Shown here: positions 2,953 to 57,660 of the stretch, piece after piece | Layout: each line of letters starts with the position of its first letter | Position numbering within the stretch: position 1 is the stretch's first letter | Assembly: GCF_030145185.1 (NCBI RefSeq) | Contig: NZ_JAQYWB010000026.1 | Location: 7,454-71,453 of the forward strand | Direction: 5' to 3' | From: Desulfoluna sp. | GTDB taxonomy: Bacteria > Desulfobacterota > Desulfobacteria > Desulfobacterales > Desulfolunaceae | Length of the DNA stretch: 64,000 bases | Position numbers and translations under genes: made by a program | Notes under the pieces: model-generated | What the model was told of the DNA's origin: nothing | What the model saw: the letters and a program-made list of their open reading frames with translations, nothing else | Databases searched by the model: none

Positions 2953-3026
2953 AAGCATGCCTCCGGCGGCCCTGCCGGGGGCCAAACTTTTGAAAATTTT
3001 TTATGGACTGGGTTTGACAAACAGGC

Positions 3027-3061
3027 AAAAAAAAGGCCACCCCATTGGGCGGCCTTTTTTC
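3027..3061. terminator. bidirectional rho-independent terminator between convergent CaCA gene and trpB
   Basis: A-run, hairpin GGCCACCCcattGGGCGGCC, then TTTTTT. Confidence 0.6.
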
Positions 3062-3093
3062 GTTACACGCAGTGCGGTGTTTTTATGCGCGAT

Positions 3094-4311
3094 CTACACG
3101 CCGAATTTCTTTCCGTAATTCTCCACCACAAAATCGATGTCTTTGTCGCCCCGGCCGGAGAGGTTCACCAGAAGGGTCTCCTCCTTCGGGAGCTCCTTGG
3201 CAAGCGTCATGGCGTAGGCCACGGCATGGGCGCTCTCGATGGCAGGGATAATGCCCTCGGTGCGGGAAAGCTCAAACAGGGCGTCGATGGTCTCCTCATC
3301 CCCTGCCGTGACATAATTCACCCGCTTGATGTCTTTCAGGAGGCTGTGCTGGGGACCAACGCCCGGGTAATCAAGGCCGCTTGCCACGGAGTAAACGGGC
3401 AGGGGCTCACCGGCCTCATCCTGAAGAAGATACGATTTAAAGCCATGCAGGGTCCCAGGCGTTCCCAGGGTCAAGGTGGCGGCGTGTTTGCCATCTTCAA
3501 GGCCCGCCCCCGAAGGCTCAACCCCATGCATCTTGACGCCCTCGTCTTCAAGAAAGGCAGCGAAGAGCCCCATGGCGTTGGAACCGCCCCCCACACAGGC
3601 CACCAGGTGATCGGGAAGTTTCCCGTAGCGTTCCTGGAACTGAGCCCGGGCTTCGATGCCGATGATCTTCTGAAAATCTCGCACCATCATGGGAAAGGGA
3701 TGGGGCCCCACCACGGAGCCAATGGCATAGAGCTGGGTCACCGGATCCGCAAGATACGCTTCAAAGGCGGCATCCACAGCATCTTTAAGGGTCTGGGTGC
3801 CTCGGGTCACCGGGATCACATTGGCCCCTAAGATCCGCATGCGGATGACGTTAGGTTTTTCTTTTTCAATGTCGATCACCCCCATGTAGATATCACACTC
3901 CAGCCCCACAAGCACAGCCGCCGTGGCCAGAGCCACGCCGTGTTGTCCGGCGCCGGTTTCGGCAATCAGCTTCTTCTTGCCCATGCGCTTGGCCAAAAGG
4001 GCCTCACCCAGGCAGTGGTTAATCTTATGGGCTCCGGTATGGTTGAGGTCTTCCCGCTTGAGGTAGATCTGAGCGCCCCCGATCTTCTCGGAGAGGTTTT
4101 TGCAGTGAAACAAAGCACTGGGACGCCCGACGAAATCCTTCATGAGCATGGTCAGCTCGCTGATAAACGCGGGATCCTCTTTGATCTCATTGTAGGCGGC
4201 GGTGATTTCATCAAGGATGGCCTGGAGCTCGGGCGGAACAAAGCTGCCGCCATAATCTCCAAAATAACCTTCGGCGTTGGGCATTTCAAGGCTGCGAATA
4301 TCGGTGGTCAT
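3094..4311 (-). CDS. trpB: tryptophan synthase beta chain
   Basis: 405 aa with the PLP-lysine context [21 protein letters not shown] and a TrpB-wide match. Start MTTDIR preceded by AGGAGA. No trpA adjacent. Confidence 0.9.
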
Positions 4312-4372
4312 ATCTCTTCTCCTGGGTCTGAATCGTCTATCTAAGGGCCTGCCCTTACCGGTTCGGCCGCCA

Positions 4373-4396
4373 CATGTTTCTACATGCAGAAACATG
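4373..4396. promoter_or_regulatory. perfect 9-6-9 inverted repeat CATGTTTCT-acatgc-AGAAACATG in the trpB/HD-gene divergent promoter region
   Basis: Seen in sequence 60-85 nt upstream of the trpB start; candidate operator. Confidence 0.35.
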
Positions 4397-4518
4397 CCTC
4401 ACTCATGCCCCTTTTGCAACCTTTTTTTACTTCCGGAAGCAGAAAAAGCGCCAATCACCTTGCCTTTCAACCCCAAACCCACCTATAGTACTCTTTCTGT
4501 CAATTTTAGCCCCTACAG

Positions 4519-5061
4519 GTGACCTACGTGATCTCCAAACCTCTCATCGAGGCTATCGTTGCCCAGTATGTCCAGCCCCTGGAGGGGCGCCATGGACTTG
4601 TTCACTGGGCCCGTGTTCTTGAAAATGGACGGCTGCTGGCCGACCGCACCGACGCTGATCTCACCGTTGTGGAGCTCTTCTCCATTTTCCACGATGCCTG
4701 CCGACACAACGAATCCTTTGACCCCAACCACGGAGCCCGTGGCGCAAAACTGGCTCGCCAGTTCCACCAGTCTGGATTCCTCTCCTTAAGTGATCGGCAA
4801 CTCGAACTGCTTACCTACGCCTGCGAAGCGCACACAGACGGGCTGATCACCGGTGACCTCACCGTGCGGGTCTGCTGGGACTCCGACCGCCTCGACCTGG
4901 GTCGCGCGGGAATCCGCCCCGCCCAGGGCCTTTTGTGCACCGGTGCCGCCCGAGACGGCGACATCATGGAGTGGGCAAGTCAGCGCAGCCTCTCCGGGCA
5001 CCGCCCCGAGCTCCTTGCCGACGAATGGGGTGTCCATCTTAAAGATGAACAGTCGGCGTAA
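4519..5061 (+). CDS. HD-domain-like putative metal-dependent phosphohydrolase
   Basis: 180 aa with GTG start. Spaced H...HD...H...D residues (HWARV, FHDACR, EAHTDG, DSDRLD) resemble an HD motif. Weak call. Confidence 0.4.
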   Translation: MTYVISKPLIEAIVAQYVQPLEGRHGLVHWARVLENGRLLADRTDADLTVVELFSIFHDACRHNESFDPNHGARGAKLARQFHQSGFLSLSDRQLELLTYACEAHTDGLITGDLTVRVCWDSDRLDLGRAGIRPAQGLLCTGAARDGDIMEWASQRSLSGHRPELLADEWGVHLKDEQSA

Positions 5062-5093: not shown

Positions 5094-5392
5094 GCCTCAG
5101 GCGGCCCTGCCGGGGGCTAAACTTTTGAAAAGTTCAACAAACAGGTTTTACAAAATAACCTTGATTCAATTTCATCTTAAAAGCGGATGTGATTTCCCCC
5201 GAGGAATCCGCCGACGCAAAAGCCTCCGGCGTGACCAGTCCGCATAGGCCCATGTCTATGCGTCACCACTTACCCCACGTCAATGGGCTACGGCGCGACA
5301 AGCGATCCGTCTTCGCCTGTGGCTACGCCGTGACATGGGGGCAAAACGCATTCGTAACCTGATTTCAAGGTGGCCCACCTTGCCGCCGAAGA
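5094..5392 (+). repeat. composite repeat element, copy A (left arm + core + right arm)
   Basis: Shares left arm GCCTCAGGCGGCCCTGCCGGGGGCTAAACTTTTGAAAAG, the core GGCGGATGTGATTT...GACATGGGGGCAAAACGCAT and right arm CTTTCAAGGTGGCCCACCTTGCCGCCGAAG with copies at 18206 and 57336. Confidence 0.85.
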
Positions 5393-5460
5393 CTGCTTCT
5401 CTGTCAATCCAATCGACACCCGTGAAAATCATCCACCCCCCATTCAGGACCTTATGACCC

Positions 5461-6694: not shown

Positions 6695-6778
6695 GCCTCC
6701 GGCGGCAAGGTGAGCCACCTTGAAAGCGGGTTGCAAATGCACTTTGTCCCTCGTTCCTCAGGCCAAATTGCATTTGCC
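6695..6778 (-). repeat. solo right-arm repeat unit with extended hairpin (GCAAATGCA...TGCATTTGC)
   Basis: GCCTCCGGCGGCAAGGTGAGCCACCTTGAAAGCGGGTTGCAAATGC..., starting 4 nt after the antiporter stop. Confidence 0.8.
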
Positions 6779-6910
6779 TTCCAATACTGACGATTGTGCC
6801 CGCAGTATCGCAAGATTTTTAAGGCTGACGATGCAAAAAGATAATCCCCCGCCACCGGATCGGATTTAAGCTTACTGAATCACTCCGCCAAGGTTTGCCA
6901 GAACGCAATC

Positions 6911-7046
6911 CCATTCCCTATTCCCCATTCCCTATTCCCTATGCACCATTCACTATTCACTATTCACTATTCACTATTCACTATTCACCATTCCCCATTC
7001 ACTATTCCCCATTCACTATTCCCCATTCACTATTCACTATCTTCAC
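6911..7046. repeat. tandem heptanucleotide array (~19 units of YATTCMC: ATTCACT/ATTCCCC/ATTCCCT)
   Basis: Seen directly. Lies in a convergent 3' intergenic region; the track ORF 6895..7209 is just its translation. Confidence 0.9.
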
Positions 7047-7303
7047 TATTCACAAAAAAAAACACCGCAACAACTCTCAAAGAGTGGTGGCGGTGCCTTT
7101 AAAAAAAGCTCTGGCTCACAGCATGGTGGAACCCCGGACGCGGTCGGACGTCCGGGACAGGAAGAAATGCTGTTGGTCATTCATGCAGTCTATTTCATTG
7201 ACAAGGTAACCAGAACAACATGAATTTAGGAGAGATCTGAGCCAGAACATCGGTTAGGAGCGCCCCGCAAAGGGGAGGCTCCAAAAATCATGTCACAAAA
7301 AAA

Positions 7304-8068: not shown

Positions 8069-8650
8069 ACGCCTTCTTCGATTAAATGAATGCCATGCAT
8101 GGTGAAGGGAACCCACCGCGCTGCACGAAAAATTGAAACGATGTGCCCCCGGCGGTCAAGGCGCAGCCCCCCTTTGCTCTTCGGCCAGGAAAAGCAAAGA
8201 AAACTGCCGTTTGCACAGGGGTTTTGATTCAATGAAAAAGAAGCACAAACACAAAAAAAACCGTGATCAAAACCCTGGGCCCTGGAACCGTAACCATGCC
8301 CCAACGGCTCATTATTTACTACCTATTCGCCCTTAAGTATACCCGCATAAATGGATACAATGTATTTTGCGCGTCTACCGACCCCTTTAAATAATCGCCC
8401 AGGCAGGTTCGCCCGAGGCAGATTTCTTCTAAAAAAGGAGGCGCCCATGCTTTGGAACGAACACTCAATCACGTGAACAAAAAAAATGCCTCTGGCAAGT
8501 CGCTTTTTGAAAGGGTGCCGGCTGCGCCTTGGTAAAAACCGCAAAACCTTTTTGGTTGCACAACCTCTCTTGCCCGCCCTGGGACAGGCAAGAGAGGCCA
8601 TGATACGTGAAGGTTACCGCAAGCGTCGGGCTCTCGAAATATTATTTAAA

Positions 8651-8702
8651 GCCTGTTTATCAAACGGTTCGAACGTTTGGCCCCCGGCAGGGCCGCCGGA
8701 GG
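8651..8702 (-). repeat. solo left-arm repeat unit directly after the acyl-CoA dehydrogenase stop
   Basis: Reverse complement of GCCTCCGGCGGCCCTGCCGGGGGCCAAACGTTCGAACGTTTG; the hairpin is preserved by compensatory changes relative to CAAACTTTTGAAAAGTTTG. Confidence 0.8.
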
Positions 8703-8716
8703 CCAAACCCTTCATG

Positions 8717-10563: not shown

Positions 10564-10618
10564 GCCTCCGGCGGCGAGGTGAGCCACCTCGAAAGCGGGT
10601 TGCGGTTAAATGCATTCG
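10564..10618 (-). repeat. solo right-arm repeat unit
   Basis: GCCTCCGGCGGCGAGGTGAGCCACCTCGAAAGCGGGTTGCGG... Confidence 0.75.
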
Positions 10619-10632
10619 GTATCATCCACGGG

Positions 10633-12003
10633 TCAGGCGCAGGCACCCACCATGTGAAGGACCTCATCGTTCCGGTTGGCGGCACACCAGATTCGCATGC
10701 GCTGGGCATCTCGAACCAGGTCGTCCCTGAAATCAGGGTGGGCGATGCTGATCAAGGCCTCGGCCCGTTCCCAGGTCGACTTGCCTTTGAGGGAAACCAT
10801 GCCGTATTCGGTGACCACATACTCGGTAATGGACCGGGGCAGGGTCACAACGGTGCCGGGATCGAAGACCGGCTTGATGCGGGAAATCAGCTGGCCCTCT
10901 TTATTGCGGGCCGTTGACGAGAGGCAGATAAAGGATTTTCCCCCCTTGGAATGGTACGCGCCATAAGCGAAATCAAATTGTCCGCCGGTTCCGGTGATAT
11001 GCCGGTACCCTGCGGATTCGGAAGAGACCTGACCGTAGAGATCCACCTCCAGGGCGTTGTTGATCGAGACCACCCGATCATTGGCTGCGATGTTGAACAG
11101 GCCGTTGGTATAATCGACGGCGTAGCTGGCGCAGGCGGGGTTGTTGTCAAGAAAGTCATAGAGCCGCTGGCTTCCCAGGGCAAAGGCGTACACCATTTTG
11201 CCCCGATCCTTGGCCTTTTCACTGTTGGTGATCTTCCCGGCCTCATACATCTCGAGGTAAGAGTCGGCAAGCATCTCGGTGTGCACCCCGAGGTTCTTCA
11301 ACTCTGACTGTGCGATGAGCTTGCCCACCGCATTGGGCATGCCTCCGATCCCCAACTGAATACAGGCCCCATCCTCGATCTGCTGAACGATCAGGGTGGC
11401 GATGGCCTTGTCCACGACGGTCACGGCAGAATCCGGCAGGGTCAGAAGCGATTTGTTGTCCGACTCCACCACAAAATCCACTTCAGAGATGTGAATCGAC
11501 TCCTCAGCCCCTCCGAGGCAGCGGGGTATATTCTCGTTCACTTCCACAATCACTTTGTGGGCACTTTCGATGATCGCCCGCTGAAAAGAGTTGGCGATGC
11601 CGAAGTTAAAGTTTCCGAAACAATCCATGGGAGCCACGCGCAGCATGCAGACATCGCTTCGAAGATTCTTTCGATAATGGGACGGCCCTTCATGGTAAAC
11701 AAAAGGAATAAAATGGCAGTTGCCCCTATCGTGACTCTTGCGCTCACCACCGCTGAAATGCCAGCTGTTATAAATGAATCGGCCACTCTCCGGGTCCCCT
11801 TTGGAGACCGCGGCCACTCCGGGAAAGGCCAGGGCTCGAACCTTCACATCCCACAGGTCATCCTGCCGCATCGCAAGGGCCGCATCCAGAAATTCCGGGG
11901 CACAACAAAACGCCCCATAATCCACCCAGTCTCCCGGGTTGACGATGGAAACCGCATCTGTTGCCGAAACGAGTTTATTCTTGTAATCACTCCTGAAACC
12001 CAT
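10633..12003 (-). CDS. acetyl-CoA hydrolase/transferase-family CoA-transferase (Cat1/ScpC/4-hydroxybutyrate CoA-transferase-like)
   Basis: 456 aa from MGFRSDYKN (RBS GGGAGGGG). Family-wide similarity including the GxGGxxD-like region. Confidence 0.8.
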   Translation of the reverse strand: MGFRSDYKNKLVSATDAVSIVNPGDWVDYGAFCCAPEFLDAALAMRQDDLWDVKVRALAFPGVAAVSKGDPESGRFIYNSWHFSGGERKSHDRGNCHFIPFVYHEGPSHYRKNLRSDVCMLRVAPMDCFGNFNFGIANSFQRAIIESAHKVIVEVNENIPRCLGGAEESIHISEVDFVVESDNKSLLTLPDSAVTVVDKAIATLIVQQIEDGACIQLGIGGMPNAVGKLIAQSELKNLGVHTEMLADSYLEMYEAGKITNSEKAKDRGKMVYAFALGSQRLYDFLDNNPACASYAVDYTNGLFNIAANDRVVSINNALEVDLYGQVSSESAGYRHITGTGGQFDFAYGAYHSKGGKSFICLSSTARNKEGQLISRIKPVFDPGTVVTLPRSITEYVVTEYGMVSLKGKSTWERAEALISIAHPDFRDDLVRDAQRMRIWCAANRNDEVLHMVGACA

Positions 12004-14698: not shown

Positions 14699-14982
14699 GA
14701 TACGTTGGCCTCGTCGTAAAAGATAAACTCGTCACACGTCGATGCCCGAATACCCGCCACTTTCCCTGTGAATCAGGAGGATGAGGGCAGGACAAAACAA
14801 CGTGGCGGAATGGTAACACAGGGGCAGGGTAAGTTCAAAAATTACCCGGATGACTCCTGTTCTGATCATCACGACAGCGTTTCAAGCCAAAGGAGACATT
14901 GCAGAAAGGATGAAAATGCATTTAAGGTGTTTTAGCCTAAGTGGCTTCGCGACCCTTGCCGCCGGCAACCAGGCTAAAGATG

Positions 14983-15126
14983 CCTCCGGCGGCCCTGCCG
15001 GGGGCCAAACTTTTACCCGATTTTATAAAGACGGGTTTGACAAACAGGTCTTAAAAAACAATCTTGGGTAAATCTAAAGCGCATTTGCAACCTGCTTTCA
15101 AGGTGGCACACCTTGCCGCCGGAGGC
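14983..15126 (+). repeat. short composite repeat (left arm joined to right arm, core absent) with flanking auxiliary units
   Basis: GCCTCCGGCGGCCCTGCCGGGGGCCAAACTTTT ... GCATTTGCAACCTGCTTTCAAGGTGGCACACCTTGCCGCCGGAGGC. Confidence 0.8.
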
Positions 15127-15198
15127 ACGTTTTTGCCCCCGACTTTAGCCATAGAAGGCTGCTTTTCATGATCTGAACAGTGACAATAGAAGGAACGC

Positions 15199-16348: not shown

Positions 16349-16970
16349 GCCTCCGGCGGCAAGGTGTGCCACCTTGAAAGCAGGTTGCGAATGCGTGGAG
16401 GCCGTCTTTATCCATGCGCTTTCGGGGCATTCGCTCGAAGGATGAAATATAACGACCGTCACGGCAGGAGACACCGATTTCATTCTTCCGAAAAACCTGG
16501 GAGCGGGGCCGTTCTGCTGAACGGCCCTCACCGCCTGAGTGATTCCCGTTAAAGCCATGAGTTCCCTGTTCATCCCAGGCCCCAATATCACCCACACCGG
16601 TGAGATTACGGCGGCATCGTAGGGTGGGCAAAGCGCGAATAATGTTCGTTCCTAAGACCCCATGCCCTTGTGGCACACGGTGCAGGGCCTTAAACTCTGC
16701 GCGAATGCGAACGCATTGCCGCCACAAATGACGACACCCGATGCGCATTCGCAAACCCGCTTTCGAGGAGGTTCACCTCGCCGCCGGAGTTATTCCGGTT
16801 AATATCAACCCATGAGTTGATACGGAAGCACCGGTAACGTATGCGCTTGCGACACACGAGGCACCCCCTCACCCTTCACGCGGACGCGGACGCGGGGTGC
16901 CGCAAGTACCGATAGCCGGGGAGCATTCGCAAACCCGCTTTCAAGGTGGCGTCACCTTGCCGCCGGAGGC
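16349..16970. repeat. cluster of three right-arm repeat units (16349-16440 reverse, 16700-16788 forward, 16921-16970 forward) in a 650-bp gene-free gap
   Basis: Each unit contains GCGAATGC...GCATTCGC and CAAGGTGNGCCACCTTG hairpins. The last unit provides the PatB stop. Confidence 0.8.
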
Positions 16971-18109
16971 ATGCTTTTTAGCGTTTCGATCGCTTTTTCC
17001 ATGCGATCCAAGGCCTCTTGCAGGACAGCTCTTGTGCAGGCGAAATTAAGCCGGAGCCATCCGGGGGCGTCGAAGTGGGCACCATCTGAGAGCCCCACGC
17101 CGCCTGCTTCAAAAAAAGCGGCGGGGTCTTTCACCCCGAGATCCCTGGCATCCATCCAGATGAGATAGGTGGCTTCCGGGAGGAGGGGTTTCAGCCCTTT
17201 CATGGCGGCAAGGCGCTTAAAGGCGTAGTCACGGTTTTCTTTGAGATACGATAAAACCTCTTTGAGCCAGGGGCTGCCGTGGATGTAGGCGGCCGTGGCC
17301 CCTTCGTAGCCCATGAGGTTCACATAAGGAACGATCCCGTCCATGGCGGCTTTAAAGCGGGTGCGAAGCGTTTCGTCTTCGATAATGGCCATGGCGCAGC
17401 CAAGGCCGGGGATGTTAAAGGTCTTGCTCGGGGCCATGAGGGTGACGGTACGGGCGGCCGCGACTTTTGAAAGGGAGGCGGTGGGGATGTGTTTTCTGGA
17501 CTCGTCCATCACCAGGTCCGCGTGAATCTCATCGGAGCAGATCAGGATATCCCGCTCCTCACAGAAGTCGACGATGCCGGAGAGTTCTTCTTTCGTCAAC
17601 AGGGTTCCACCGGGATTATAAGGAGAGCAGAGCATGAGAAGTTTTGTCTCGGGGGTGACCTGGGCTTCCAGGACATCTCGGTTGATCACAAGCCGCCCGT
17701 TCTCCACGGGCAGAGACACCTTCACCATCTCTCGCCGGGCGTTTTTCGCCGCCGATAAAAAAGGCGGGTAGGCGGGGCTGGGCACGGCGATGGCCTCTGT
17801 TTCTCCCACGAGCCGCGCTGCCACATTAAATCCCGTCACCACCCCGGGAATAAAAAGGAGACAATCCCTCTCCACCTTCCAGCCAAAATGTTTCTCAATG
17901 TGCCCCAGCGCAGCCTCATACAAGGCATCACTGGGAAGCGTATACCCGTAGACAGGATGTCCCGCGCGCCGAACCAGCGCCGTGGTCACGGCCTCGGGTG
18001 CTGCAAAATCCATATCCGCGACCCAAAGGGGCAGCACATCCTCCCCCTTAAACCACTCCCACTTCACACTCGACGTCCCTTTTCGGTCAACGGGCCGGTC
18101 AAAATTCAT
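16952..18109 (-). CDS. PatB/MalY-family C-S lyase (cystathionine beta-lyase-type aminotransferase, class I/II)
   Basis: 385 aa with N-terminal MNFDRPVDRKGTSSVKW typical of PatB/MalY and the PLP-lysine region SKTFNIPGLG. Confidence 0.85.
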   Translation of the reverse strand: MNFDRPVDRKGTSSVKWEWFKGEDVLPLWVADMDFAAPEAVTTALVRRAGHPVYGYTLPSDALYEAALGHIEKHFGWKVERDCLLFIPGVVTGFNVAARLVGETEAIAVPSPAYPPFLSAAKNARREMVKVSLPVENGRLVINRDVLEAQVTPETKLLMLCSPYNPGGTLLTKEELSGIVDFCEERDILICSDEIHADLVMDESRKHIPTASLSKVAAARTVTLMAPSKTFNIPGLGCAMAIIEDETLRTRFKAAMDGIVPYVNLMGYEGATAAYIHGSPWLKEVLSYLKENRDYAFKRLAAMKGLKPLLPEATYLIWMDARDLGVKDPAAFFEAGGVGLSDGAHFDAPGWLRLNFACTRAVLQEALDRMEKAIETLKSMPPAAR

Positions 18110-18205
18110 AAAAACTCCTTGTGATTAAAATCAGGGGCAGCGCCCCGGCAGGGTGAATATACCCCTGACGGAGACGAGGGGCCAGAAAAAATGCGGTGTT
18201 TGGAC

Positions 18206-18578
18206 GTAACTGTTCAGCTTACGCCTCCGGCGGCCCTGCCGGGGGCCAAACTTTTGAAAAGTTTGACAAACAGGCTTTTATGAGGAAACCCAATCAATTC
18301 ATGTTTGAAGGCGGATGTGATTTGACCCGAGGGATCCGCCTACGCAAAAGCCTTCGGCGTGACAAGTCCGCCTACGCAAAAGCCTCCGGCGTGACAAGTC
18401 CGCCTACGCCCATGTCTATGCGCCACCATTCGACCAACGTCAATGGGCTACGGCGCGACAAGCGATCCGTCTTCGCCTGCGGCTACTCCGTGACATGGGG
18501 GCAAAACGCATCCGCAATCTGCTTTCAAGGTGGCACACCTTGCCGCCGGAGGCTGCTTTTCATGAGCTGAATAGTTAC
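18206..18578 (+). repeat. composite repeat element, copy B (full length, with outer inverted repeat GTAACTGTTCAGC / GCTGAATAGTTAC)
   Basis: Inner TIR GCCTCCGGCGGC (18223) ... GCCGCCGGAGGC (18553). An internal 31-nt unit is duplicated relative to copies A and C. Confidence 0.9.
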
Positions 18579-21550: not shown

Positions 21551-21664
21551 AAAAAGACTCCGGCGAAGCTGCCGGAGGCCAAGTTCTTGAAAAATAACAG
21601 AAACAGGCTTAAAAAACAGCAGCGTATTCGCAATCCTGGGTTCAAAGTGGCGCACCTTACCGCC
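21551..21664 (+). repeat. degenerate composite repeat copy
   Basis: GACTCCGGCGAAGCTGCCGGAGGCCAAGTTCTTGAAAAA ... TTCAAAGTGGCGCACCTTACCGCCGGAAAC. Confidence 0.6.
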
Positions 21665-21737
21665 GGAAACTTTTTTTAAATTTTCCCTGCCGTAGCCTGA
21701 ATTTATCTCCATCACGGACTTGACAAAACACCCCGAC

Positions 21738-22974: not shown

Positions 22975-23090
22975 CAAGCCTCCGGCGGCGAGGTGTGCCA
23001 CCTCGAAAGCGGGTTGCGAATGCTCCCAGCCCTCGTTCCTCGGGCTGATCACATTCGCTGATGGGCTACGCCCGTGGCCGGTCAGTGCTC
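22975..23090 (-). repeat. solo right-arm repeat unit with extended hairpin
   Basis: GCCTCCGGCGGCGAGGTGTGCCACCTCGAAAGCGGGTTGCGAATGCTCC...CATTCGC. Confidence 0.8.
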
Positions 23091-23116
23091 GTTTAGAGCT
23101 CAATAATAATGAAAAA

Positions 23117-23150
23117 AGGGGACACAGCAAACGCTGTGTCCCCTTTTTAT
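23117..23150 (+). terminator. rho-independent terminator (leuB)
   Basis: GGGGACACAGCaaacGCTGTGTCCCC followed by TTTTTATTT. Confidence 0.8.
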
Positions 23151-23159: not shown

Positions 23160-23252
23160 CCGAACTCGCATGGTAACTATTCAGCTTACGCCTCCGGCGG
23201 CCCTGATAGGAGGCTAAACCTCCGAAAAGCTTGATAAAAAAATCTTAAAAAA
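23160..23252 (+). repeat. solo left-arm repeat unit with outer GTAACTATTCAGC
   Basis: GTAACTATTCAGCTTACGCCTCCGGCGGCCCTGATAGGAGGCTAAACCTCCGAAAAGCTTGA... Confidence 0.7.
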
Positions 23253-23562
23253 CTCTTCTTGAATGCATTTTGTTTTAAATACGAATGTGATTTAATCAAA
23301 GTTATTTTGCAAAATCTATTTGAGCACAGTCCTAATTTTATATCGAAAGGGCCTTTTTGTGTTTCCGGTCGCATTCCGGCCTGCGTATTTTTTGATTATC
23401 AAAGCCGGAAATTGAGCTCAAACACGAGAAAGCATCTATGAAAATTCATGGCAAGGGCTACCCTTGCCGTGTGAACGCAGGGTTCTGTGTGAGGGCTGAA
23501 GAAGGGCTGATACCCCTGCTCGATTTTGTCCGGTTAAATTCCGGCTATTTTTGTCTTGACCA

Positions 23563-23590
23563 TATCGAGATAACGCGATATCTATATCGC
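23563..23590. promoter_or_regulatory. overlapping palindromes ATATCG-n8-CGATAT-ct-ATATCG abutting the ArsR start codon (candidate autoregulatory operator)
   Basis: Seen in sequence. The same ATATCG-aaaaaaag-CGATAT sits at 23948-23967 upstream of the OYE gene. Confidence 0.55.
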
Positions 23591-23899
23591 ATGAATATGG
23601 ATGAAATTTTCAAAGTACTTGCCAATCCTGTGCGGGTTCGAATTCTCTCTTGGCTGAAAGATCCGGATGCCCATTTTCCCCCCATGATTCATCTCCCGGA
23701 TGAAGAACAGGGGAAGGGATATGTTTGCGTCGGGTTGATTCAGGAAAAAGCGGGGGTGACCCAGTCCACGGTGTCACACTACCTGAACATGATGAGGCAG
23801 GCGGAGTTGCTTTCCTGTCAGCGGATCGGGCAATGGACCTATTACCGCAGGAATGATGAAACCCTCAGGCAAACTGCCGATTACATCGACAACCTTTAG
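23591..23899 (+). CDS. ArsR/SmtB-family transcriptional regulator
   Basis: Winged-HTH (FKVLANPVRVRILSWL ... GVTQSTVSHYLNMMRQAELL). Start at the internal MNMDEIF; the 5' part of the track ORF is AT-rich leader. Confidence 0.7.
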   Translation: MNMDEIFKVLANPVRVRILSWLKDPDAHFPPMIHLPDEEQGKGYVCVGLIQEKAGVTQSTVSHYLNMMRQAELLSCQRIGQWTYYRRNDETLRQTADYIDNL

Positions 23900-25886: not shown

Positions 25887-25894
25887 TAAGTGGG

Positions 25895-26060
25895 CCTGAA
25901 CGTAAGGCGGATGTGATTTGCCCCGAGGTACGAAGGGCGAAGCACATCCGCCTTTAAAACAAAATTCATCCGAAATGAATTTTTAAGACCTGTTTGTTAA
26001 ACTTTTCAAAGCTTTAGCCCCGACAGGGCCGCCGGAAGAATAATCTGAATAGTTACAAAA
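25895..26060 (-). repeat. partial composite repeat, reverse orientation (core fragment + left arm)
   Basis: GGCGGATGTGATTTGCCCCGAGG ... reverse complement of GCCTCCGGCGGCCCTGTCGGGGCTAAAGCTTTGAAAAGTTTAACAAACAGG. Confidence 0.7.
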
Positions 26061-26123: not shown

Positions 26124-27266
26124 CTACAAAGCTTGAATCCACACAAAGCAACTCGCCCAGCGGGTGTCGCGCAGCTGTTCCAAAAGATCGCCGTAGCTGA
26201 AAGTGCGTCCGTCGTTCTCGGACAAGGGGGTGACAGAGATGGGGGCGTGGGGAGTCCCGGAATGTATTGGCTCAGGATCCCATCGGACAAGAAGCATATC
26301 CCGGCTTCCGTGAGCGGAGTCAGGGATCGCTTCAAGCCCTTCGTAAAAATTTTCATCCGGGAACGTAAGGGGAGAAAGCGAGTCCACAGGCCGATTCGTC
26401 ATCAGAGAGAGCACCTGCCCCGACTCGGAGACATGATAAAGGGAAAGAGAACCGGTGGGCTCAGGCGGAGAGAGATGAACCTGATAAGGGCTACCGGACG
26501 CCAGAAGGCCCTCGGGGGTGACCCCTATGCGCAAACCCTTATTCTCAGTCTTTTCCACAAAGCAGAGACGAAACCACGCATCGGTGTCGACAGGATAAAC
26601 CGCAGGGTCAACCCGAAGGGTCCACCCCCCGTGTCGCCTGACCAGATGAAATTGCGAGGGAAAGACCCCGGCGGTCGCCAGCTCCCGTGCGAGGGGAAGG
26701 GCCGCCTTATAGCCCTCGCCAAACGCCAGGGGCCGTTTTAAGAGGTGTTCACGGTCCGCAGCCACCTTTTGAAAAAGGGTGCGGTTGTCGTAACCCAGGG
26801 CCACATAATACCGACCCGAAGCCCGGGTCCGCTTCACCATCGTAAGATGACTCAAGCTGACCCGGCTCTCCAGATCCACACGAAAGTGAGAAGAAAACAT
26901 ACGGCCTGAAGCGCCCCGCTCCGCAACCACCTCACCGGTAGAGTGAACGCTCACCCGAAGAGCCTCGGCAATCTCCCGCGACGCCTCCGACCGGGCCGAG
27001 GCCATGCTGTCTCCCTGCCCGTATCCCACCAGCACATGCGCAGGTGCCCCCACATCCCTTGCCACATACCACCCCGGCCCGCCACACCCCTGAAACAAAA
27101 ACAAAAGCAAAAATATGCCTGCAGAGAAATGCCTCCGGCGGCCCTGCCGGGGGCCAAACTTTTGATCCGCCTTCGCCCGAGGGCTACGGCGCGACAAGAA
27201 AGTTTGACAAACAGGTTTTAAAAACTGATTTTTCGATTTCGAGATAAAATCATTTCGACTCGGCAT
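26124..27266 (-). CDS. putative lipoprotein (LPP20/DUF4384-like), start uncertain
   Basis: Signal peptide with lipobox (RRRHFSAGIFLLLFLFQGC). The N-terminal ~45 codons of the track ORF lie inside a repeat element (27126-27266); an alternative TTG start exists near 27197. Confidence 0.6.
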   Translation of the reverse strand: MPSRNDFISKSKNQFLKPVCQTFLSRRSPRAKADQKFGPRQGRRRHFSAGIFLLLFLFQGCGGPGWYVARDVGAPAHVLVGYGQGDSMASARSEASREIAEALRVSVHSTGEVVAERGASGRMFSSHFRVDLESRVSLSHLTMVKRTRASGRYYVALGYDNRTLFQKVAADREHLLKRPLAFGEGYKAALPLARELATAGVFPSQFHLVRRHGGWTLRVDPAVYPVDTDAWFRLCFVEKTENKGLRIGVTPEGLLASGSPYQVHLSPPEPTGSLSLYHVSESGQVLSLMTNRPVDSLSPLTFPDENFYEGLEAIPDSAHGSRDMLLVRWDPEPIHSGTPHAPISVTPLSENDGRTFSYGDLLEQLRDTRWASCFVWIQAL

Positions 27267-27310
27267 GTGCGTTCACCTTAAAAAAATGTAACCATTCAGC
27301 TTCACCCTGT
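27126..27310 (+). repeat. left-arm repeat unit plus auxiliary units, overlapping the 5' end of the lipoprotein gene
   Basis: GCCTCCGGCGGCCCTGCCGGGGGCCAAACTTTTGA...GTTTGACAAACAGG ... GTAACCATTCAGC. Confidence 0.75.
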
Positions 27311-27559
27311 CTCTGGCGGGTCTCTTTTTGAAAAAAATTTCGCAAAAACGTTTCAGCCCGTAGGGTGCGGCTCCCGCACCGTTCAACGTCACGCAAACCA
27401 CCGGACCCGTCTCAACACTTATCACGAAGTGCGGCGTTGCAGGTTTATCAGACGTTAAGCGGTGCGCACGGCGCACCCTACATTTCACATCGACACGGTT
27501 ACCAAAGGACAGACCCTTTATACGGTTTTCTTCCTCATCGACCCTGGCGCATCGGTGTG

Positions 27560-27770
27560 AGGCGATTGGGTGGCATGAGCTGAACAGTTACCATTGTGCA
27601 CACTCACCGCTCATACACTTGCGACGCATGATGCATTCCCTTGCCTGTCGCGCGAATGCGTACGCATTTCAGCCCGGAATGACGACACCCAAATCGCATT
27701 CGCAAACCCGCTTTCAAGGTGGTTTTTGCTACAGTGGCTTCGCCACCTTGCCGCCGGAGGCATGTTTTTA
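27560..27770 (+). repeat. right-arm repeat unit with outer GCTGAACAGTTAC and auxiliary GGTGGTTTTTGCTACAGTGGCTTCGCCACCTTGCCGCCGGAGGC
   Basis: Seen in sequence. Ends 7 nt before the caspase-gene stop. Confidence 0.75.
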
Positions 27771-35171: not shown

Positions 35172-35261
35172 CAAAAACGCCTCGCCTTCCGGCGGGCAGG
35201 GGATTTTTTCCCACCCTGGATTCACCGGCCCGGCTGCGCCAACCTCGGCGGCAACGCCACA

Positions 35262-35306
35262 CGAATGCGCATTCGCTTTCAAGGTGGCACACCTTGCCGC
35301 CGGAGG
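35262..35306 (+). repeat. solo right-arm repeat unit
   Basis: CGAATGCGCATTCGCTTTCAAGGTGGCACACCTTGCCGCCGGAGGC. Confidence 0.8.
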
Positions 35307-35420
35307 CACGCTTTTGACTTTTCCTCTGAGCCCTCTGTGGCTCTGTGGTTCATTTAACCTTGACCATAGAGGGCTCTTTTATTCATGTTCACATCATCGT
35401 CCCATCACAGAGTTTGACTT

Positions 35421-55326: not shown

Positions 55327-55338
55327 TGGAACCCCCTT

Positions 55339-56229
55339 ATGGAAACCCCCATCCTGGAAATCCGGAATCTTGTCAAACATTACGCCGATGTCACCGCGGT
55401 CAAAGGGATCTCTTTTGCCATCCGTCGCGGCACCTGCTTTGGGCTCTTAGGCCCCAACGGCGCCGGTAAAACCACCACGATTGAAGTGACCGAAGGCATT
55501 CTCCCCGAAACCTCCGGTGAGATCCTGTACAAAGGGGCTCCACGGGGTGAAAGCTTTACCCGGGAGGTGGGCATCCAACTCCAGAACACCGAGTTGCCCC
55601 TGTTCCTCACCGTGGAAGAGACCCTGGAGACCTTCCGTCATCTCTACACAAAACGCGCAGGACGGGAAGCCCTCATCGCCGCCTGTCGCTTAGAAGAGAT
55701 CCTTAAGCGAGACAACCGAAAAATCTCAGGCGGCCAAAAACAGCGACTGCTCCTGGCCATGGCCCTGGCAAGCGACCCGGACCTCATTTTTTTAGATGAG
55801 CCCACCACCGGCTTGGACCCCCAGGCCAGGCGTCATCTCTGGGAAATCGTGGAGAAACTCAAGGAAGACGGAAAGACGGTGGTGCTCACCACCCACTACA
55901 TGGAAGAGGCGCAAAACCTCTGCGATGAAATCGCCATCATGGATCACGGTCGCATCATCGCCATGGGAAAAACAGAAGCCCTCCTTGCCGCCCATTGCAA
56001 AGGCTCTTCCATCATGCTGCCCGGAACCGCACCCGACGACGCCTTCACCGCCCTGTCTTCCGCCTGGTTCCGCCTGCCGGACGGTCGCATCTCTATCCAA
56101 ACTGAAGACCCGGACGCCTCCCTGCGGGAACTGGTCGCAAAGGGATTTGACCTGACCGGCATTGTCGTGACCCCCCAGACCTTAGAAGACCTGTTCCTCG
56201 AGCTGACGGGCAACGCCCTTCGAACCTGA
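55339..56229 (+). CDS. ABC transporter ATP-binding protein (ABC-2 type)
   Basis: Walker A GPNGAGKTT, signature SGGQKQR, Walker B LIFLDEPT. Confidence 0.9.
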   Translation: METPILEIRNLVKHYADVTAVKGISFAIRRGTCFGLLGPNGAGKTTTIEVTEGILPETSGEILYKGAPRGESFTREVGIQLQNTELPLFLTVEETLETFRHLYTKRAGREALIAACRLEEILKRDNRKISGGQKQRLLLAMALASDPDLIFLDEPTTGLDPQARRHLWEIVEKLKEDGKTVVLTTHYMEEAQNLCDEIAIMDHGRIIAMGKTEALLAAHCKGSSIMLPGTAPDDAFTALSSAWFRLPDGRISIQTEDPDASLRELVAKGFDLTGIVVTPQTLEDLFLELTGNALRT

Positions 56230-56270
56230 CAACCCGCTTTCAAGATGGCTTACCTTGCCGCCTGAGGCCC
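56230..56270 (+). repeat. degenerate right-arm repeat unit between ABC genes
   Basis: CAACCCGCTTTCAAGATGGCTTACCTTGCCGCCTGAGGC. Confidence 0.6.
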
Positions 56271-56302
56271 TTTTTCATTTTTTTACCAGAGGTATTGTTC
56301 CC

Positions 56303-57328
56303 ATGATCAAACGCATCTGGACCCTTTTCAAAGCCCGGAATATCGAATTCTACAGAGACCGTTCCGCCCTGGGGTGGAGCCTTCTCTTCCCCTTTCTCGT
56401 CATTGCGGGATTTTCTCTTATTTTCAGTGAAAATTCACAAAGACTCTACAAAGTGGGCGTCCTTCACACAACCCCCGGCCCGGACCTCTCCGAGAGCGGT
56501 CATCTCCTCACCCACCCCCTCATCCAGGCCATTGAGGTTTCCCCGCTTGACTCTGCCCTGTCCAAACTGCGGCACCACCGTCTTGACATGGTCCTCGCGC
56601 CGGACACAGGCCACTACTGGATTAACACTGACGCCCCCAAGGGGGCTGTCCTCGAAGAGATCCTTCTGGGCGGCGAACGGAAAACACCCGGGCCATTTAC
56701 CAGACAGGTGATCGAAGGAGACCGGATCCCCTATGTGGAATGGCTCTTTCCCGGCGTCCTCGGCATGAACATGATGTTTTCCGCCCTGTTCGGGGTAGGG
56801 TATGTGGTGGTCCGTTACCGGAAAAACGGGGTTCTGAAACGTTTCAGCGTCACCCCGGTTCGCCCCTGGGAGTTCCTCACCGCCCAGATCCTCTCTCGCC
56901 TCTTTGTCATGATCGCCACCACCGGCATCGTCTATGGCACATGCGCTGCCCTCTACGGCTTTTCCTGCCGTGGCTCGTTCGGGGCTCTGTTCACCGTCTT
57001 TCTCGCCGGAGGCATGGCCATGATCTCCTTAGGTCTCCTCCTGGCCGCCCGGGGCAGCAGTGAAGAGCTGGCCGGAGGCATCTTGAACCTCGTCTCCTGG
57101 CCCATGATGTTTCTGTCCGGCGTCTGGTTCTCCCTTGAGGGCACGGCCCCATGGGTCCAAACCCTCGCCCGAATATTCCCCCTGACCCACCTCATCGAAG
57201 GCGCCCGAAAGGTGATGAACGACGGAGCTGGCTTTGCCGAGATCCGCTTTGAAATTGCCATCCTCCTGGCCATGGCCCTGGCATGCCTCATTGCAGGTTC
57301 CCTTCTCTTTCAGTGGAAGAATGAATAA
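56303..57328 (+). CDS. ABC-2 family transporter permease
   Basis: 341 aa from MIKRIWTLFKARNIEFYRDR, with a 6-TM ABC-2 profile. Confidence 0.8.
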   Translation: MIKRIWTLFKARNIEFYRDRSALGWSLLFPFLVIAGFSLIFSENSQRLYKVGVLHTTPGPDLSESGHLLTHPLIQAIEVSPLDSALSKLRHHRLDMVLAPDTGHYWINTDAPKGAVLEEILLGGERKTPGPFTRQVIEGDRIPYVEWLFPGVLGMNMMFSALFGVGYVVVRYRKNGVLKRFSVTPVRPWEFLTAQILSRLFVMIATTGIVYGTCAALYGFSCRGSFGALFTVFLAGGMAMISLGLLLAARGSSEELAGGILNLVSWPMMFLSGVWFSLEGTAPWVQTLARIFPLTHLIEGARKVMNDGAGFAEIRFEIAILLAMALACLIAGSLLFQWKNE

Positions 57329-57335
57329 AAAAAAT

Positions 57336-57660
57336 GCCTCCGGCGGCCCTGCCGTGGGCTAAACTTTTGCCTGATTTTATAAAGATGGGTTTAACCAACA
57401 GGTCTTAAATACATAGTTCAGATTTACGTCGACCCAAATCCGGATGTGATTTGACCCGAGGAATCCGCCTACGCCCATGTCTATGCGCCACCATTCGACC
57501 AACGTCAATGGGCTACGGAGCGACAAGCGATCCGTCTTCGCCTGCGGCTACGCCGTGACATGGGGGCAAAACGCATCCGCAACCTGCTTTCAAGGTGTTT
57601 TTGCCTAAATGGCTTCGCCACCCTTACCGCCGGAGGCTATTGGGGGAGCTGGATAGTTAT
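57336..57660 (+). repeat. composite repeat element, copy C (full length)
   Basis: TIR GCCTCCGGCGGC (57336) ... CCGCCGGAGGC (57636), then outer GCTGGATAGTTAT. The core matches copies A and B over ~150 nt. Confidence 0.9.

What the first reader, a model, noticed from the sequence alone, without database searches (positions are those of the whole stretch)
2959..57660. Pervasive structured repeat family with terminal inverted repeats (MITE/REP-like): 3 full composite copies plus more than 15 solo arms in 64 kb
Almost every intergenic gap contains units of one family.
- Full copies at 5094-5392, 18206-18578 and 57336-57660 share a ~150-nt core (GGCGGATGTGATTTGACCCGAGG ... GTCAATGGGCTACGGCGCGACAAGCGATCCGTCTTCGCCTGCGGCTAC ... 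GACATGGGGGCAAAACGCATCCGCAA).
- The core is flanked by a 'left arm' (GCCTCCGGCGGCCCTGCCGGGGGCCAAACTTTTGAAAAGTTTGACAAACAGG) and a 'right arm' (CGCATTCGCAAACCCGCTTTCAAGGTGGCACACCTTGCCGCCGGAGGC).
- The element therefore begins GCCTCCGGCGGC and ends GCCGCCGGAGGC, a 12-bp terminal inverted repeat. Copy B has an additional outer inverted pair, GTAACTGTTCAGC / GCTGAATAGTTAC, that also occurs at several solo sites.
- Solo left arms are at about 2959, 8651(-), 23160, 25990(-) and 27126. Solo right arms are at about 6695(-), 10564(-), 15076, 16349(-), 16700, 16921, 22975(-), 27650, 35262 and 56230. A short left+right copy lacking the core is at 14983-15126.
- Each arm folds into perfect hairpins (CAAACTTTTgaaAAGTTTG; CAAGGTGtgcCACCTTG; GCGAATGC...GCATTCGC).
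- At 8651 the hairpin is maintained by compensatory substitutions (CAAACGTTCgaaCGTTTG). That argues for selection on RNA/DNA structure rather than on sequence.
The density, about 3.5 kb or 5% of the window, is unusual. The elements may act as terminators, mRNA stabilisers, recombination substrates or a non-autonomous transposon family.
Basis: seen in the sequence. Interest (0 to 1): 0.7.

Follow-up and report, generated by a model that had tools for sequence, protein, structure and literature searches.

The report
Mosaic hairpin-rich MITE family in Desulfoluna
This stretch of a Desulfoluna chromosome carries about 18 copies or fragments of a small non-coding, hairpin-rich mobile element (a MITE) that inserts with 8-bp target duplications and reshuffles at a 12-base repeat. 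It is a new family of an ordinary kind of bacterial selfish DNA, and one of its 24-base hairpins is shared word for word across several phyla and plasmids.

Summary
**Verdict:** The 12-mer GCCTCCGGCGGC occurs 16 times in 64 kb, against 0.04 expected by chance.

**What it is**
- The window comes from a Desulfoluna sp. chromosome.
- The family is genome-wide in three Desulfoluna species and in related MAGs.
- The canonical unit is about 171 nt: 12-mer, hairpins H1 to H4, inverted 12-mer.
- The window's three "full copies" are a subfamily with a 130-160-nt insert in the H3 loop. The "solo arms" are half-units.

**Evidence for mobility**
- The true transposition ends are the outer inverted repeat GTAACTATTCAGC...GCTGAATAGTTAC, flanked by 8-bp target-site duplications (11 of 28 elements match at 7/8 or better; shuffles give 0.6).
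- One filled/empty site pair and several presence/absence differences between species support recent movement.
- The elements show no orientation bias towards neighbouring genes, and no Rfam family matches.

**Open points**
- No transposase was found in about 2 Mb of held sequence.
- Most copies lack the outer repeat and a duplication.
- Hairpin stems covary, with a strand-specific excess of G·T over A·C.
- The exact 24-nt H1 hairpin also occurs in other phyla and in gammaproteobacterial plasmids.

It is a new member of a known kind (MITE or BIME-like mosaic repeat).

The parts
2959..3036 (+). Left arm only: 12-mer, hairpin H1, hairpin H2 with a loop insert, then ACAAACAGG. It lies between the stop of the Na/Ca exchanger gene (2952) and a separate terminator-like hairpin (about 3030-3062).
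   Evidence: profile positions 1-63
5094..5393 (+). Unit of the large-insert subfamily (copy A): left arm, H3 split by an insert of about 130 nt, H4, and a decayed right 12-mer (GCCGCCGAAGAC).
6695..6852 (-). Nearly whole, decayed unit (profile positions 17-172). Its 12-mer end abuts the stop of the Na/H exchanger gene.
8634..8703 (-). Left arm only, directly after the stop of the acyl-CoA dehydrogenase gene. Its H2 is a variant (CAAACGTTCGAACCGTTTG).
10564..10644 (-). Right half (partial H3, H4, 12-mer). The 12-mer sits at the same position in D. limicola and D. spongiiphila.
14925..15186 (+). Cluster of three pieces: a right-arm fragment with an H4 loop insert (14925-14975), the linker AGGCTAAAGAT, and a short L+R unit (14982-15126). 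A spacer module and a decayed outer repeat TCTGAACAGTGAC (15174-15186) follow.
16349..16413 (-). Right half downstream of the M20 peptidase gene (stop at 16305).
16699..16789 (+). Right-half variant: a GCGAATGCG...CGCATTCGC hairpin, a variant H4 and a decayed 12-mer.
   Evidence: (families D12, D17)
16899..16970 (+). Right half. Its last 19 nt supply the final 8 codons and the stop of the aminotransferase gene on the minus strand.
18206..18578 (+). Complete element with both outer inverted repeats (18206-18218, 18566-18578). The inner unit is 18223-18553. The H3-loop insert carries a 32-nt tandem duplication (18335-18409). No target duplication is preserved (3/8).
21554..21677 (+). Decayed short L+R unit between the SBF transporter and isopropylmalate/isocitrate dehydrogenase genes.
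22978..23063 (-). 3' half (H3, H4, 12-mer) between the dehydrogenase stop (22962) and a separate palindromic terminator (23113-23148).
23173..23295 (+). Outer repeat (23173-23185) plus a decayed left arm.
25893..26056 (-). Outer repeat (26044-26056), left arm and H3 (profile positions 4-145); no right arm.
27131..27761 (+). Composite of three pieces: a left arm with a 33-nt insert in the H2 loop (27131-27235), a nested element with its own outer repeats (27288-27591), and a right half with an H4 loop insert (27650-27761).
35240..35307 (+). Mini-unit: a decayed 5' 12-mer (CCTCGGCGGC), a GAATGCGCATTC hairpin, H4 and the 12-mer.
56205..56268 (+). Decayed right half between the ABC transporter ATPase and permease genes. 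It is absent at this site in the related MAG (L076).
57336..57660 (+). Unit of the large-insert subfamily (copy C) with H2 and H4 loop inserts. The right outer repeat is at 57648-57660; the left outer repeat is lost. The orthologous site in L076 holds a short element with a 7/8 target duplication.

Best explanation
The repeats are a family of non-autonomous DNA transposons (MITEs) in a Desulfoluna chromosome, together with their many decayed and rearranged derivatives.

**Shown**
- Intact elements end in the inverted repeat GTAACTATTCAGC...GCTGAATAGTTAC.
- They are flanked by an 8-bp, mostly A/T-rich, target-site duplication.
- They encode nothing.
- They differ in presence between species.

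**Inferred:** a DDE-type transposase supplied in trans moves them. The GTAA start and the 8-bp duplication point to an IS66-like partner, but none was found.

**Anatomy.** Inside the ends lies a modular unit of about 171 nt:
- A 12-mer, GCCTCCGGCGGC.
- Hairpin H1, in which the 12-mer pairs with GCCGGGGGC through a fixed T·G.
- Hairpin H2 (CAAACTTTTGAAAAGTTTG).
- A variable stretch.
- Hairpin H3, with the conserved loop GAGGAACGA.
- Hairpin H4.
- The inverted 12-mer, followed by a T-run.

The two 12-mers are the best conserved part. I infer that they are subterminal binding sites.

**Shown:** 12-mers in direct orientation are junctions at which whole modules are gained or lost. Hairpin loops accept further inserts. 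Together these produce the mosaic of 'arms', short forms and large-insert forms seen in the window.

**Inferred:** most copies in the window are immobile fossils. Effects on the host are by-products: hairpins in 3' UTRs, longer intergenic spacers and an altered protein C-terminus.
For: **Identity and spread**
- The window's aminotransferase is 100% identical to a Desulfoluna sp. protein.
- The unit length has a mode at 169-173 nt.

**Transposition signature**
- Of 28 elements with both outer repeats, 11 have flanking 8-mers identical at 7/8 or better, and 7 are perfect. Shuffled pairings give a mean of 0.6 and a maximum of 5 in 2000.
- Seven of 19 do so in a second, wider sample.
- Filled site L066 3632-3808 against empty site L227.
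- Spacer between the NMO (nitronate monooxygenase-family) and SBF (sodium/bile-acid symporter-family) genes: 64 nt in the window, 650 nt in D. limicola and 1038 nt in D. spongiiphila, the last two filled with elements.
- Sigma-54 activator | M20 peptidase spacer: elements in two species, none in the third.

**No coding partner and no RNA family**
- No recurrent ORF lies beside the elements in about 1 Mb.
- Flanking window genes are ordinary metabolic, transport and regulatory genes; none hits a transposase family.
- There is no Rfam match at gathering score, and only weak P8 hits below it.

**Orientation and placement**
- 78 elements are co-oriented with tandem neighbour genes and 85 are anti-oriented.
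- Density per intergenic gap is 0.72 (convergent), 0.53 (tandem) and 0.31 (divergent).

**Conservation profile** in loci not chosen by the 24-mer
- 12-mers 97-98%.
- 3' half of H1 93%.
- H2 and H4 85%.
- H3 80%.
- Variable stretch 57%.

**Module exchange**
- L234 has one extra 44-nt right-arm unit exactly between two direct GCCGCCGGAGGC copies, compared with L012.
- L024 and L241 differ in the module next to the same outer repeat.
Against: - No autonomous element or transposase was found: no paired outer repeats enclosing a long ORF and no IS66-type DET motif in about 2 Mb of held sequence.
- 77 of 135 complete inner units have no outer repeat within 100 nt and no duplication at the 12-mer boundary. 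The mechanism shown for the outer-repeat copies is therefore not shown for the majority.
- None of the window's own copies keeps a recognisable duplication.
- Stems H2, H3 and H4 covary more than the controls (12 pairs with double changes against 6.4±1.3).
- G·T exceeds A·C on one strand in H2 (132 against 84) and H3 (227 against 86). A DDE transposon does not need this.
- All related loci were found through the 24-mer, so copy classes without it are under-sampled.
Confidence: 0.72

Rival explanations
1. A structured RNA or cis-acting RNA element family kept by selection on the host: a 3'-UTR stabiliser, bidirectional terminator or small RNA. On this reading the transposon ends are incidental.
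For: - The folds are very stable: canonical unit -78 kcal/mol with z = -6.75; copy B z = -4.86.
- Stems H2, H3 and H4 covary above both controls.
- G·T exceeds A·C on the L-to-R strand in H2 and H3.
- The right end is followed by a T-run and the left end is preceded by an A-run.
- Elements sit just after stop codons and are commonest between convergent genes.
- An element occupies the aminotransferase | NMO (nitronate monooxygenase-family gene) spacer in four species.
Against: - There is no orientation bias to neighbouring genes (78 against 85).
- Orientation differs between species at the same spacer.
- Elements are absent from orthologous spacers.
- Target-site duplications show insertion.
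- The simple terminator scan flags only one decayed copy (21577-21558) and finds no significant excess overall (34 against 23.4±4.5).
- Separate terminator-like hairpins follow two of the elements.
- No Rfam family matches.
- The covariation counts include copies that share ancestry.
Confidence: 0.12
2. A REP/REPIN-BIME type system: palindromic units copied as single-stranded hairpins by a domesticated HUH tyrosine transposase (RAYT).
For: - The units are intergenic, hairpin-forming and mosaic.
- A Desulfovibrio-like contig has an inverted doublet of left arms (L249).
- Most units lack target duplications.
- The strand-specific G·T excess fits a single-stranded intermediate.
Against: - 8-bp target duplications and a clean filled/empty pair exist. 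RAYT/IS200-type movement makes none (my knowledge).
- No conserved GTAG-type 5' tetranucleotide precedes H1 (flank profiles).
- A regex for the HUH...Y motif found no candidate among 2,900 ORFs beside the elements.
- D. limicola copies lie on both strands, interleaved along the chromosome.
Confidence: 0.05
3. A local duplication or assembly artefact, or a chance clustering of a GC-rich word.
For: None beyond the high local density.
Against: - The 12-mer occurs 16 times against 0.04 expected.
- The same units occur in independent complete and draft genomes, in metagenomes from several sites and on plasmids.
Confidence: 0.01

Closest known systems
Bacterial MITEs such as the Correia elements (CREE/NEMIS) of Neisseria and ERIC/IRU of enterobacteria (features recalled from my own knowledge)
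   Same: - Size of 100-400 bp, non-coding, with terminal inverted repeats and target-site duplications.
- Hundreds of intergenic copies, often co-transcribed with neighbouring genes.
- Stable hairpins.
- Size classes made by internal insertions or deletions at fixed points.
   Different: - The duplication is 8 bp at A/T-rich sites, not TA as in Correia.
- There are two layers of inverted repeat: an outer 13-mer and an inner 12-mer.
- The interior is a string of local hairpins with covariation, not simply two paired halves.
- Most copies lack the outer ends.
- The left-arm hairpins recur in other phyla.
BIMEs / REP elements of E. coli and REPINs of Pseudomonas (features recalled from my own knowledge)
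   Same: - Mosaic combinations of a few hairpin modules in intergenic regions.
- Commonest at 3' ends of genes.
- Many copies without target duplications.
   Different: - Copies with target-site duplications are present here.
- No RAYT gene and no GTAG-like guide tetranucleotide were found.
- The units are much longer.
IS66 family insertion sequences
   Same: - The ends start with GTAA.
- The duplication is 8 bp. IS66 has 20-30-bp inverted repeats starting GTAAGCG and 8-bp direct repeats (PMC11946415).
   Different: - The repeat reads GTAACTATTCAGC, not GTAAGCG.
- No TnpA, TnpB or TnpC gene was found.
- The link is a lead, not a test.
Chunjie MITE of Geobacter uraniireducens (recalled from my own knowledge, not checked here)
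   Same: A MITE family in another member of the former Deltaproteobacteria, inserted between genes without disturbing operons.
   Different: A different organism. No sequence comparison was made here.

Membership tests
MITE (miniature inverted-repeat transposable element) | Short element (under about 600 bp) without coding capacity | tested here: met
   - Units are 99-409 nt.
- No ORF recurs in or beside copies.
- Indels between copies, such as the 32-nt duplication at 18335-18409, break any reading frame.
MITE (miniature inverted-repeat transposable element) | Terminal inverted repeats | tested here: met
   - The outer repeat is GTAACTATTCAGC / GCTGAATAGTTAC.
- The inner repeat is the 12-mer.
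- However, 77 of 135 inner units have no outer repeat within 100 nt.
MITE (miniature inverted-repeat transposable element) | Target-site duplication of fixed length | tested here: met
   - The duplication is 8 bp: 11 of 28 elements match at 7/8 or better, against 0.6 in shuffles.
- 7 of 19 do so in a second sample.
- One filled/empty site pair was found.
- The feature is not met for units bounded only by the 12-mer, nor for the window's own copies.
MITE (miniature inverted-repeat transposable element) | Many dispersed copies, and insertion polymorphism between relatives | tested here: met
MITE (miniature inverted-repeat transposable element) | An autonomous element with matching ends that encodes the transposase | tested here: inconclusive
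   None was found in about 2 Mb of held loci.
IS66-derived element | Inverted repeats starting GTAAGCG | tested here: not met
   Only GTAA is shared. The repeat here is GTAACTATTCAGC (compared with PMC11946415).
IS66-derived element | 8-bp direct repeats | tested here: met
IS66-derived element | IS66-type transposase (TnpC, DDE_Tnp_IS66) in the same genomes | not tested
   Only a crude motif search of the held loci was run, and it found nothing convincing.
REP / REPIN with RAYT | No target duplication; hairpin unit with a conserved 5' tetranucleotide; an associated Y1 (HUH) transposase gene flanked by units | tested here: not met
   - Target duplications are present.
- No conserved tetranucleotide appears in the flank profiles.
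- No HUH...Y candidate was found among 2,900 ORFs.
- Whole genomes were not scanned.
Any Rfam RNA family | A match at the family's gathering score | tested here: not met
   - The whole window gave only 23S and 5S rRNA.
- With permissive filters the best hit on the elements was Pseudomonas sRNA P8, at 20-30 bits against a gathering score of 60.
Intrinsic (rho-independent) terminator | A G+C-rich hairpin directly followed by a T-run | tested here: inconclusive
   - The flank consensus has a T-run 2-4 nt after the right 12-mer, and reading leftwards after H1.
- The scan flagged only one decayed copy (21577-21558).
- The scan found no significant excess overall: 34 against 23.4±4.5 and 32 against 25.7±5.3.

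The most novel reading that the evidence does not exclude
The inner unit, or at least its left arm (H1 plus H2), may not be passive cargo. It may be a folded single-strand module, RNA or ssDNA, that a still unidentified mobile-element protein uses: a transposase cofactor, priming signal or recombination signal.

This would explain several observations together:
- The exact 24-nt hairpin with its fixed T·G pair is shared by Desulfobacterota, an Aminicenantes MAG, a Clostridiales MAG and gammaproteobacterial plasmid replication regions.
- H2 covaries between lineages.
- G·T is tolerated on one strand only.
- Most units spread or persist without the outer repeats and without duplications.
Probability: 0.15. 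Interest if true: 0.7.

Novelty: new member of a known kind. Interest (0 to 1): 0.4.

Why it matters
**For annotation**
- The family explains most of the long intergenic spacers in Desulfoluna genomes.
- It creates false ORFs, such as 18196..18570.
- It can rewrite gene ends, as in the aminotransferase C-terminus.
- It will break short-read assemblies.

**For biology**
- It is a well-resolved case of how a MITE family diversifies, by loop insertions and by exchange at a short repeat.
- It offers insertion polymorphisms as strain markers for sponge-associated and sediment sulfate reducers.

**Wider interest.** The one point with reach beyond this genus is the word-for-word conservation of the H1 hairpin across phyla and on broad-host-range-type plasmids. 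This hints at a shared protein partner or a shared vehicle of transfer.

Tried and rejected
**Known families**
- Rfam with gathering and with permissive thresholds gave nothing for the elements.
- tRNA and tmRNA search: none.
- Literature searches for the 12-mer, for Desulfoluna repeats and for MITEs in sulfate reducers found no description of the family.

**Hunt for the transposase**
- All-against-all comparison of ORFs beside 117 loci found only orthologues, no multi-copy protein.
- An HUH...Y regex found none.
- A DET-motif regex for IS66 TnpC gave 14 hits, none convincing.
- Outer-repeat pairs 0.6-7 kb apart enclose ordinary genes or nothing.
- Outer repeats not followed by the 12-mer are truncated elements.
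- L217, where an ORF follows H1, encodes a 113-aa protein with no resemblance to a transposase by eye; it was not run against Pfam.
- A viral-contig scan with the 16-nt outer repeat gave 65 single chance matches, none next to the 12-mer.

**Other ideas tested**
- Target duplications at the 12-mer boundary: none at any offset or length tried.
- Pair-specific complementarity of the A/T flanks: none (3.55 against 3.47).
- DNA-uptake-sequence idea: dropped, because the 12-mer is always embedded in the larger units.
- The heptamer array at 6913-7053 as part of the family: not found in other loci.
- The phage collection holds no match to the element.

Full report

Yes. The three long copies read as described.
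- The 12-mer GCCTCCGGCGGC occurs 16 times on both strands. Dinucleotide-preserving shuffles give 0.04, and it is the commonest 12-mer in the window.
- All copies lie between ORFs whose products match ordinary metabolic, transport and regulatory families; none hits a transposase family.
- The elements stop at 57.7 kb. None lies between 35.3 and 56.2 kb.

**2. Where the window comes from and how far the family reaches**

- The window's aminotransferase is 100% identical to a protein of "Desulfoluna sp." on a 71-kb contig. It is 85-86% identical to those of D. limicola and D. spongiiphila.
  - D. limicola ASN36 gave loci from 1.2 to 6.1 Mb of the complete chromosome, on both strands.
  - Other hits were D. 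butyratoxydans, D. spongiiphila, a Desulfolunaceae MAG, Desulforapulum and Desulfobacteraceae MAGs.
  - Unexpectedly, it also hit many contigs of an Aminicenantes MAG, a Clostridiales MAG, a Maridesulfovibrio and an "Anaerolinea" contig.
- A metagenome scan gave 120 more loci of the same kinds.
- The family is therefore neither local nor an artefact.

**3. Anatomy**

Distances between a left arm and the next right arm peak sharply at 169-173 nt. Aligned, these units read as follows:
- GCCTCCGGCGGC-CCTGCCGGGGGC. This is H1: the 12-mer pairs with the following 9 nt through a fixed T·G.
- CAAACTTTTGAAAAGTTTG (H2).
- ACAAACAGG.
- About 35 variable nt.
- GGCGGATGTGATTTGCCCCGAGGAACGAGGGGCAAAGCGCATCCGC (H3, two stems with the conserved loop GAGGAACGA).
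- AACCTGCTTT.
- CAAGGTGGCACACCTTG (H4).
- CCGCCGGAGGC, followed by a T-run.

How the window's forms relate to this unit:
- The three "full copies" are this unit with 130-160 nt inserted in the H3 loop. H3 still closes around the insert in the predicted fold.
- The same insert subfamily occurs in D. spongiiphila.
- A 33-nt piece sharing GGGCTACGGCGCGACAAG with that insert sits in the H2 loop at 27165-27198 and in many other loci.
- H2 and H4 loops carry other inserts (2959, 14982, 57336; 14925, 27715, 57590).
- "Solo right arms" are 3' halves (H3-H4-12-mer). "Solo left arms" are 5' parts.

**4. Evidence for transposition**

Many copies are bracketed by a further inverted repeat, GTAACTATTCAGC...GCTGAATAGTTAC. 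It lies 4-9 nt outside the left 12-mer and 11-13 nt (sometimes about 40) outside the right one.
- The 8 nt outside these ends are direct repeats. Of 28 elements, 11 match at 7/8 or better and 7 are perfect (for example AAAAAAAG, TTTTTTTC, AAATAAAA, AAAAAGTT, GTTTTTTA). Shuffled pairings give 0.6, at most 5 in 2000.
- A second sample gives 7 of 19.
- Three perfect cases are in the Aminicenantes MAG. There the element has a longer repeat (GTAACTATTCAGTTTTGGAAAAA) and a single internal left arm.
- L066 carries a 177-nt element where the 91%-identical L227 has an uninterrupted site (CTCCTTAT becomes CTCCTTTT | element | CCCTTTTT).

Synteny with D. limicola (L129), D. spongiiphila (L130), a Desulfobacterales MAG (L132) and a Desulfolunaceae MAG (L076) shows gain and loss. 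NMO and SBF below are the nitronate monooxygenase-family and sodium/bile-acid symporter-family genes.

| Spacer | Window | Other genomes |
|---|---|---|
| NMO / SBF | 64 nt, no element | 650 nt (L129) and 1038 nt (L130), filled with elements |
| Sigma-54 activator / M20 peptidase | elements | elements in L129, none in L130 |
| Convergent pair at 59381-59393 | 11 nt | about 250 nt with an element in L076 |
| Aminotransferase / NMO | element, + orientation | elements in all three others, opposite orientation |

An 8-bp duplication with ends starting GTAA matches what is reported for IS66 (inverted repeats starting GTAAGCG, 8-bp direct repeats; PMC11946415). The repeat itself differs, so this is only a lead.

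**5. What was not found**

No transposase turned up.
- ORFs beside the elements form no multi-copy family.
- No HUH...Y candidates and no convincing IS66-like motif hits appeared in about 2 Mb.
- Outer-repeat pairs 0.6-7 kb apart enclose ordinary genes.

In addition, 77 of 135 complete inner units have no outer repeat within 100 nt. These show no duplication at any offset. Their flanks share only a consensus, A-rich...AT | unit | A(T/G)NTTTTT, which is not pair-specific. How these units arise is open.

**6. The 12-mer as a junction**

In loci not chosen through the 24-mer, the two 12-mers are the best conserved part:

| Part | Identity |
|---|---|
| 12-mers | 97-98% |
| 3' half of H1 | 93% |
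| H2 and H4 | 85% |
| H3 | 80% |
| Variable stretch | 57% |

- The 12-mer is followed by at least four different hairpins: CCTGCCGGGGGC, AAGGTGTGCCACCTT, CAGGGGATGATCCCCTGG and GTCGCTTTTTTGAAAAAAGCGAC.
- Between 96%-identical loci, L234 has exactly one extra right-arm unit between two direct GCCGCCGGAGGC copies where L012 has one copy.
- L024 and L241 carry different modules next to the same outer repeat.
- Exchange or slippage at the 12-mer therefore accounts for much of the mosaic, including tandem units joined by the conserved linker AGCCAGGTTAAAGAT.

**7. Structure**

- The canonical unit folds at -78 kcal/mol (z = -6.75), copy B at -139.8 (z = -4.86), and the short window copy as DNA at z = -3.99.
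- On 30 units, 12 of 45 pairs show changes on both sides. Column shuffles give 6.4±1.3 (0 of 500 reach 12), and slid structures give 3-6.
- The double changes are in H2, H3 and H4. The closing 12-mer pairing never covaries.
- Over 639 profile hits, G·T outnumbers A·C on the left-to-right strand in H2 (132 against 84). In H3 it is 227 against 86 without the polymorphic pair, and 13 of 15 positions agree. There is no such excess in H1, H4 or the 12-mer pairing.
- Copies share ancestry, so these are not independent events. The direction is nevertheless consistent.
- The elements show no orientation preference to neighbouring genes (78 against 85). They are commonest between convergent genes and rarest between divergent ones (0.72, 0.53 and 0.31 per gap). 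This is the pattern expected of insertions tolerated at gene ends.
- At 2959 and 22978 the element lies between the stop codon and a separate palindromic terminator-like hairpin, so it is probably transcribed in the 3' UTR.
- The terminator scan flags only one decayed copy (21577-21558).

**8. Reading**

- The best-supported account is a MITE family with an unidentified DDE partner, plus a large population of rearranged and decayed derivatives.
- A host-selected RNA role and a REP/RAYT system are weaker rivals. The first fails on orientation and on presence/absence. The second fails on the duplications.
- Three things remain unexplained: the majority class without outer ends, the strand-specific wobble tolerance, and the exact conservation of H1 across phyla.

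**9. A lead outside the window**

The O-type element matched ten gammaproteobacterial plasmids over 31-33 nt at 97%. These include P. aeruginosa pFAHZU31-KPC and Klebsiella, Raoultella, Aeromonas and Enterobacter plasmids.
- There the exact H1 and an H2-like hairpin (CAAACGGTCGCGTTTG) lie in a non-coding stretch of the replication/maintenance region. In one plasmid type this is downstream of RepA and its iterons. In another it is between a small ORF and kfrA.
- No Rfam match was found there.
- The "Anaerolinea" contig L070 and metagenome loci L186, L216 and L250 are this plasmid-type sequence.
- Plasmids are thus one possible vehicle for the cross-phylum spread of the left arm.

**10. Verdict**

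The finding is real and well delimited. It is a new family of a known kind. Interest is moderate, raised somewhat by the conserved hairpin and the unexplained class of copies.

Noticed in passing
window 16952-16978 (minus strand gene 16952..18109): The aminotransferase (MalY/PatB-type) gene runs 8 codons into the element. Its C-terminus ...KSMPPAAR* is encoded by AAAAGCATGCCTCCGGCGGCAAGGTGA, the reverse complement of the right 12-mer and the start of H4. Orthologues in three relatives end 8-11 residues earlier.
   Followed up: yes
window 63220-64000 (minus strand): The 3' part of the 23S rRNA aligns to the bacterial LSU model with three insertions of 83, 56 and 89 nt and a low score (125 bits). 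The 5S rRNA has an insertion of about 12 nt. These are unusual expansion or intervening sequences.
   Followed up: no
window 6913-7053: A tandem array of about 20 copies of the heptamer ATTCACT (variants ATTCCCC, ATTCCCT) lies next to the element at 6695-6852. A similar heptamer run lies beside an H1 hairpin in viral contig L001, but a strict pattern found it in no other locus.
   Followed up: partly
window 23173-26056: Two outer-repeat plus left-arm ends in inverted orientation bracket three genes (ArsR-type regulator, OYE-type flavin oxidoreductase, glyoxalase-family protein), like a composite transposon. The 8-nt flanks do not match.
   Followed up: partly
L318 (NZ_CP078010.1) 1880-1920; L319 (NZ_AP022017.1) 3005-3045 of the locus: The exact 24-nt H1 hairpin plus an H2-like hairpin lies in the non-coding replication/maintenance region of gammaproteobacterial plasmids (Pseudomonas, Klebsiella, Raoultella, Aeromonas, Enterobacter). 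The 'Anaerolinea thermophila MAG' contig L070 is the same plasmid-type sequence and is probably mis-binned.
   Followed up: partly
L128 (Maridesulfovibrio) around 4569-4592; L040, L052, L093 (Aminicenantes MAG): In several non-Desulfoluna genomes the reverse complement of H1 lies just upstream of a start codon. Its GGAGG is then placed like a Shine-Dalgarno sequence held in the stem (L128: GCCGCCGGAGGC-TTATC-ATG). This could be chance, given insertion in both orientations.
   Followed up: no
L123 (Clostridiales MAG) 351-800; L189 around 3450-3600 of the locus (plus-strand coordinates): H1 heads tandem direct repeats of 148 nt (three units) and of about 75 nt in other lineages. The module also occurs in satellite-like arrays.
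   Followed up: no
window 36226-36331: A 24-nt tandem repeat, 4.4 copies (TTACGAGATTACCCGTGCCGGCCC), unrelated to the family.
   Followed up: no
window 18196-18570: The mechanical ORF list contains a 124-aa ORF that lies entirely inside copy B of the element. Such ORFs are likely to be mis-annotated as hypothetical proteins. D. limicola has small called genes at the corresponding element-filled spacers.
   Followed up: partly
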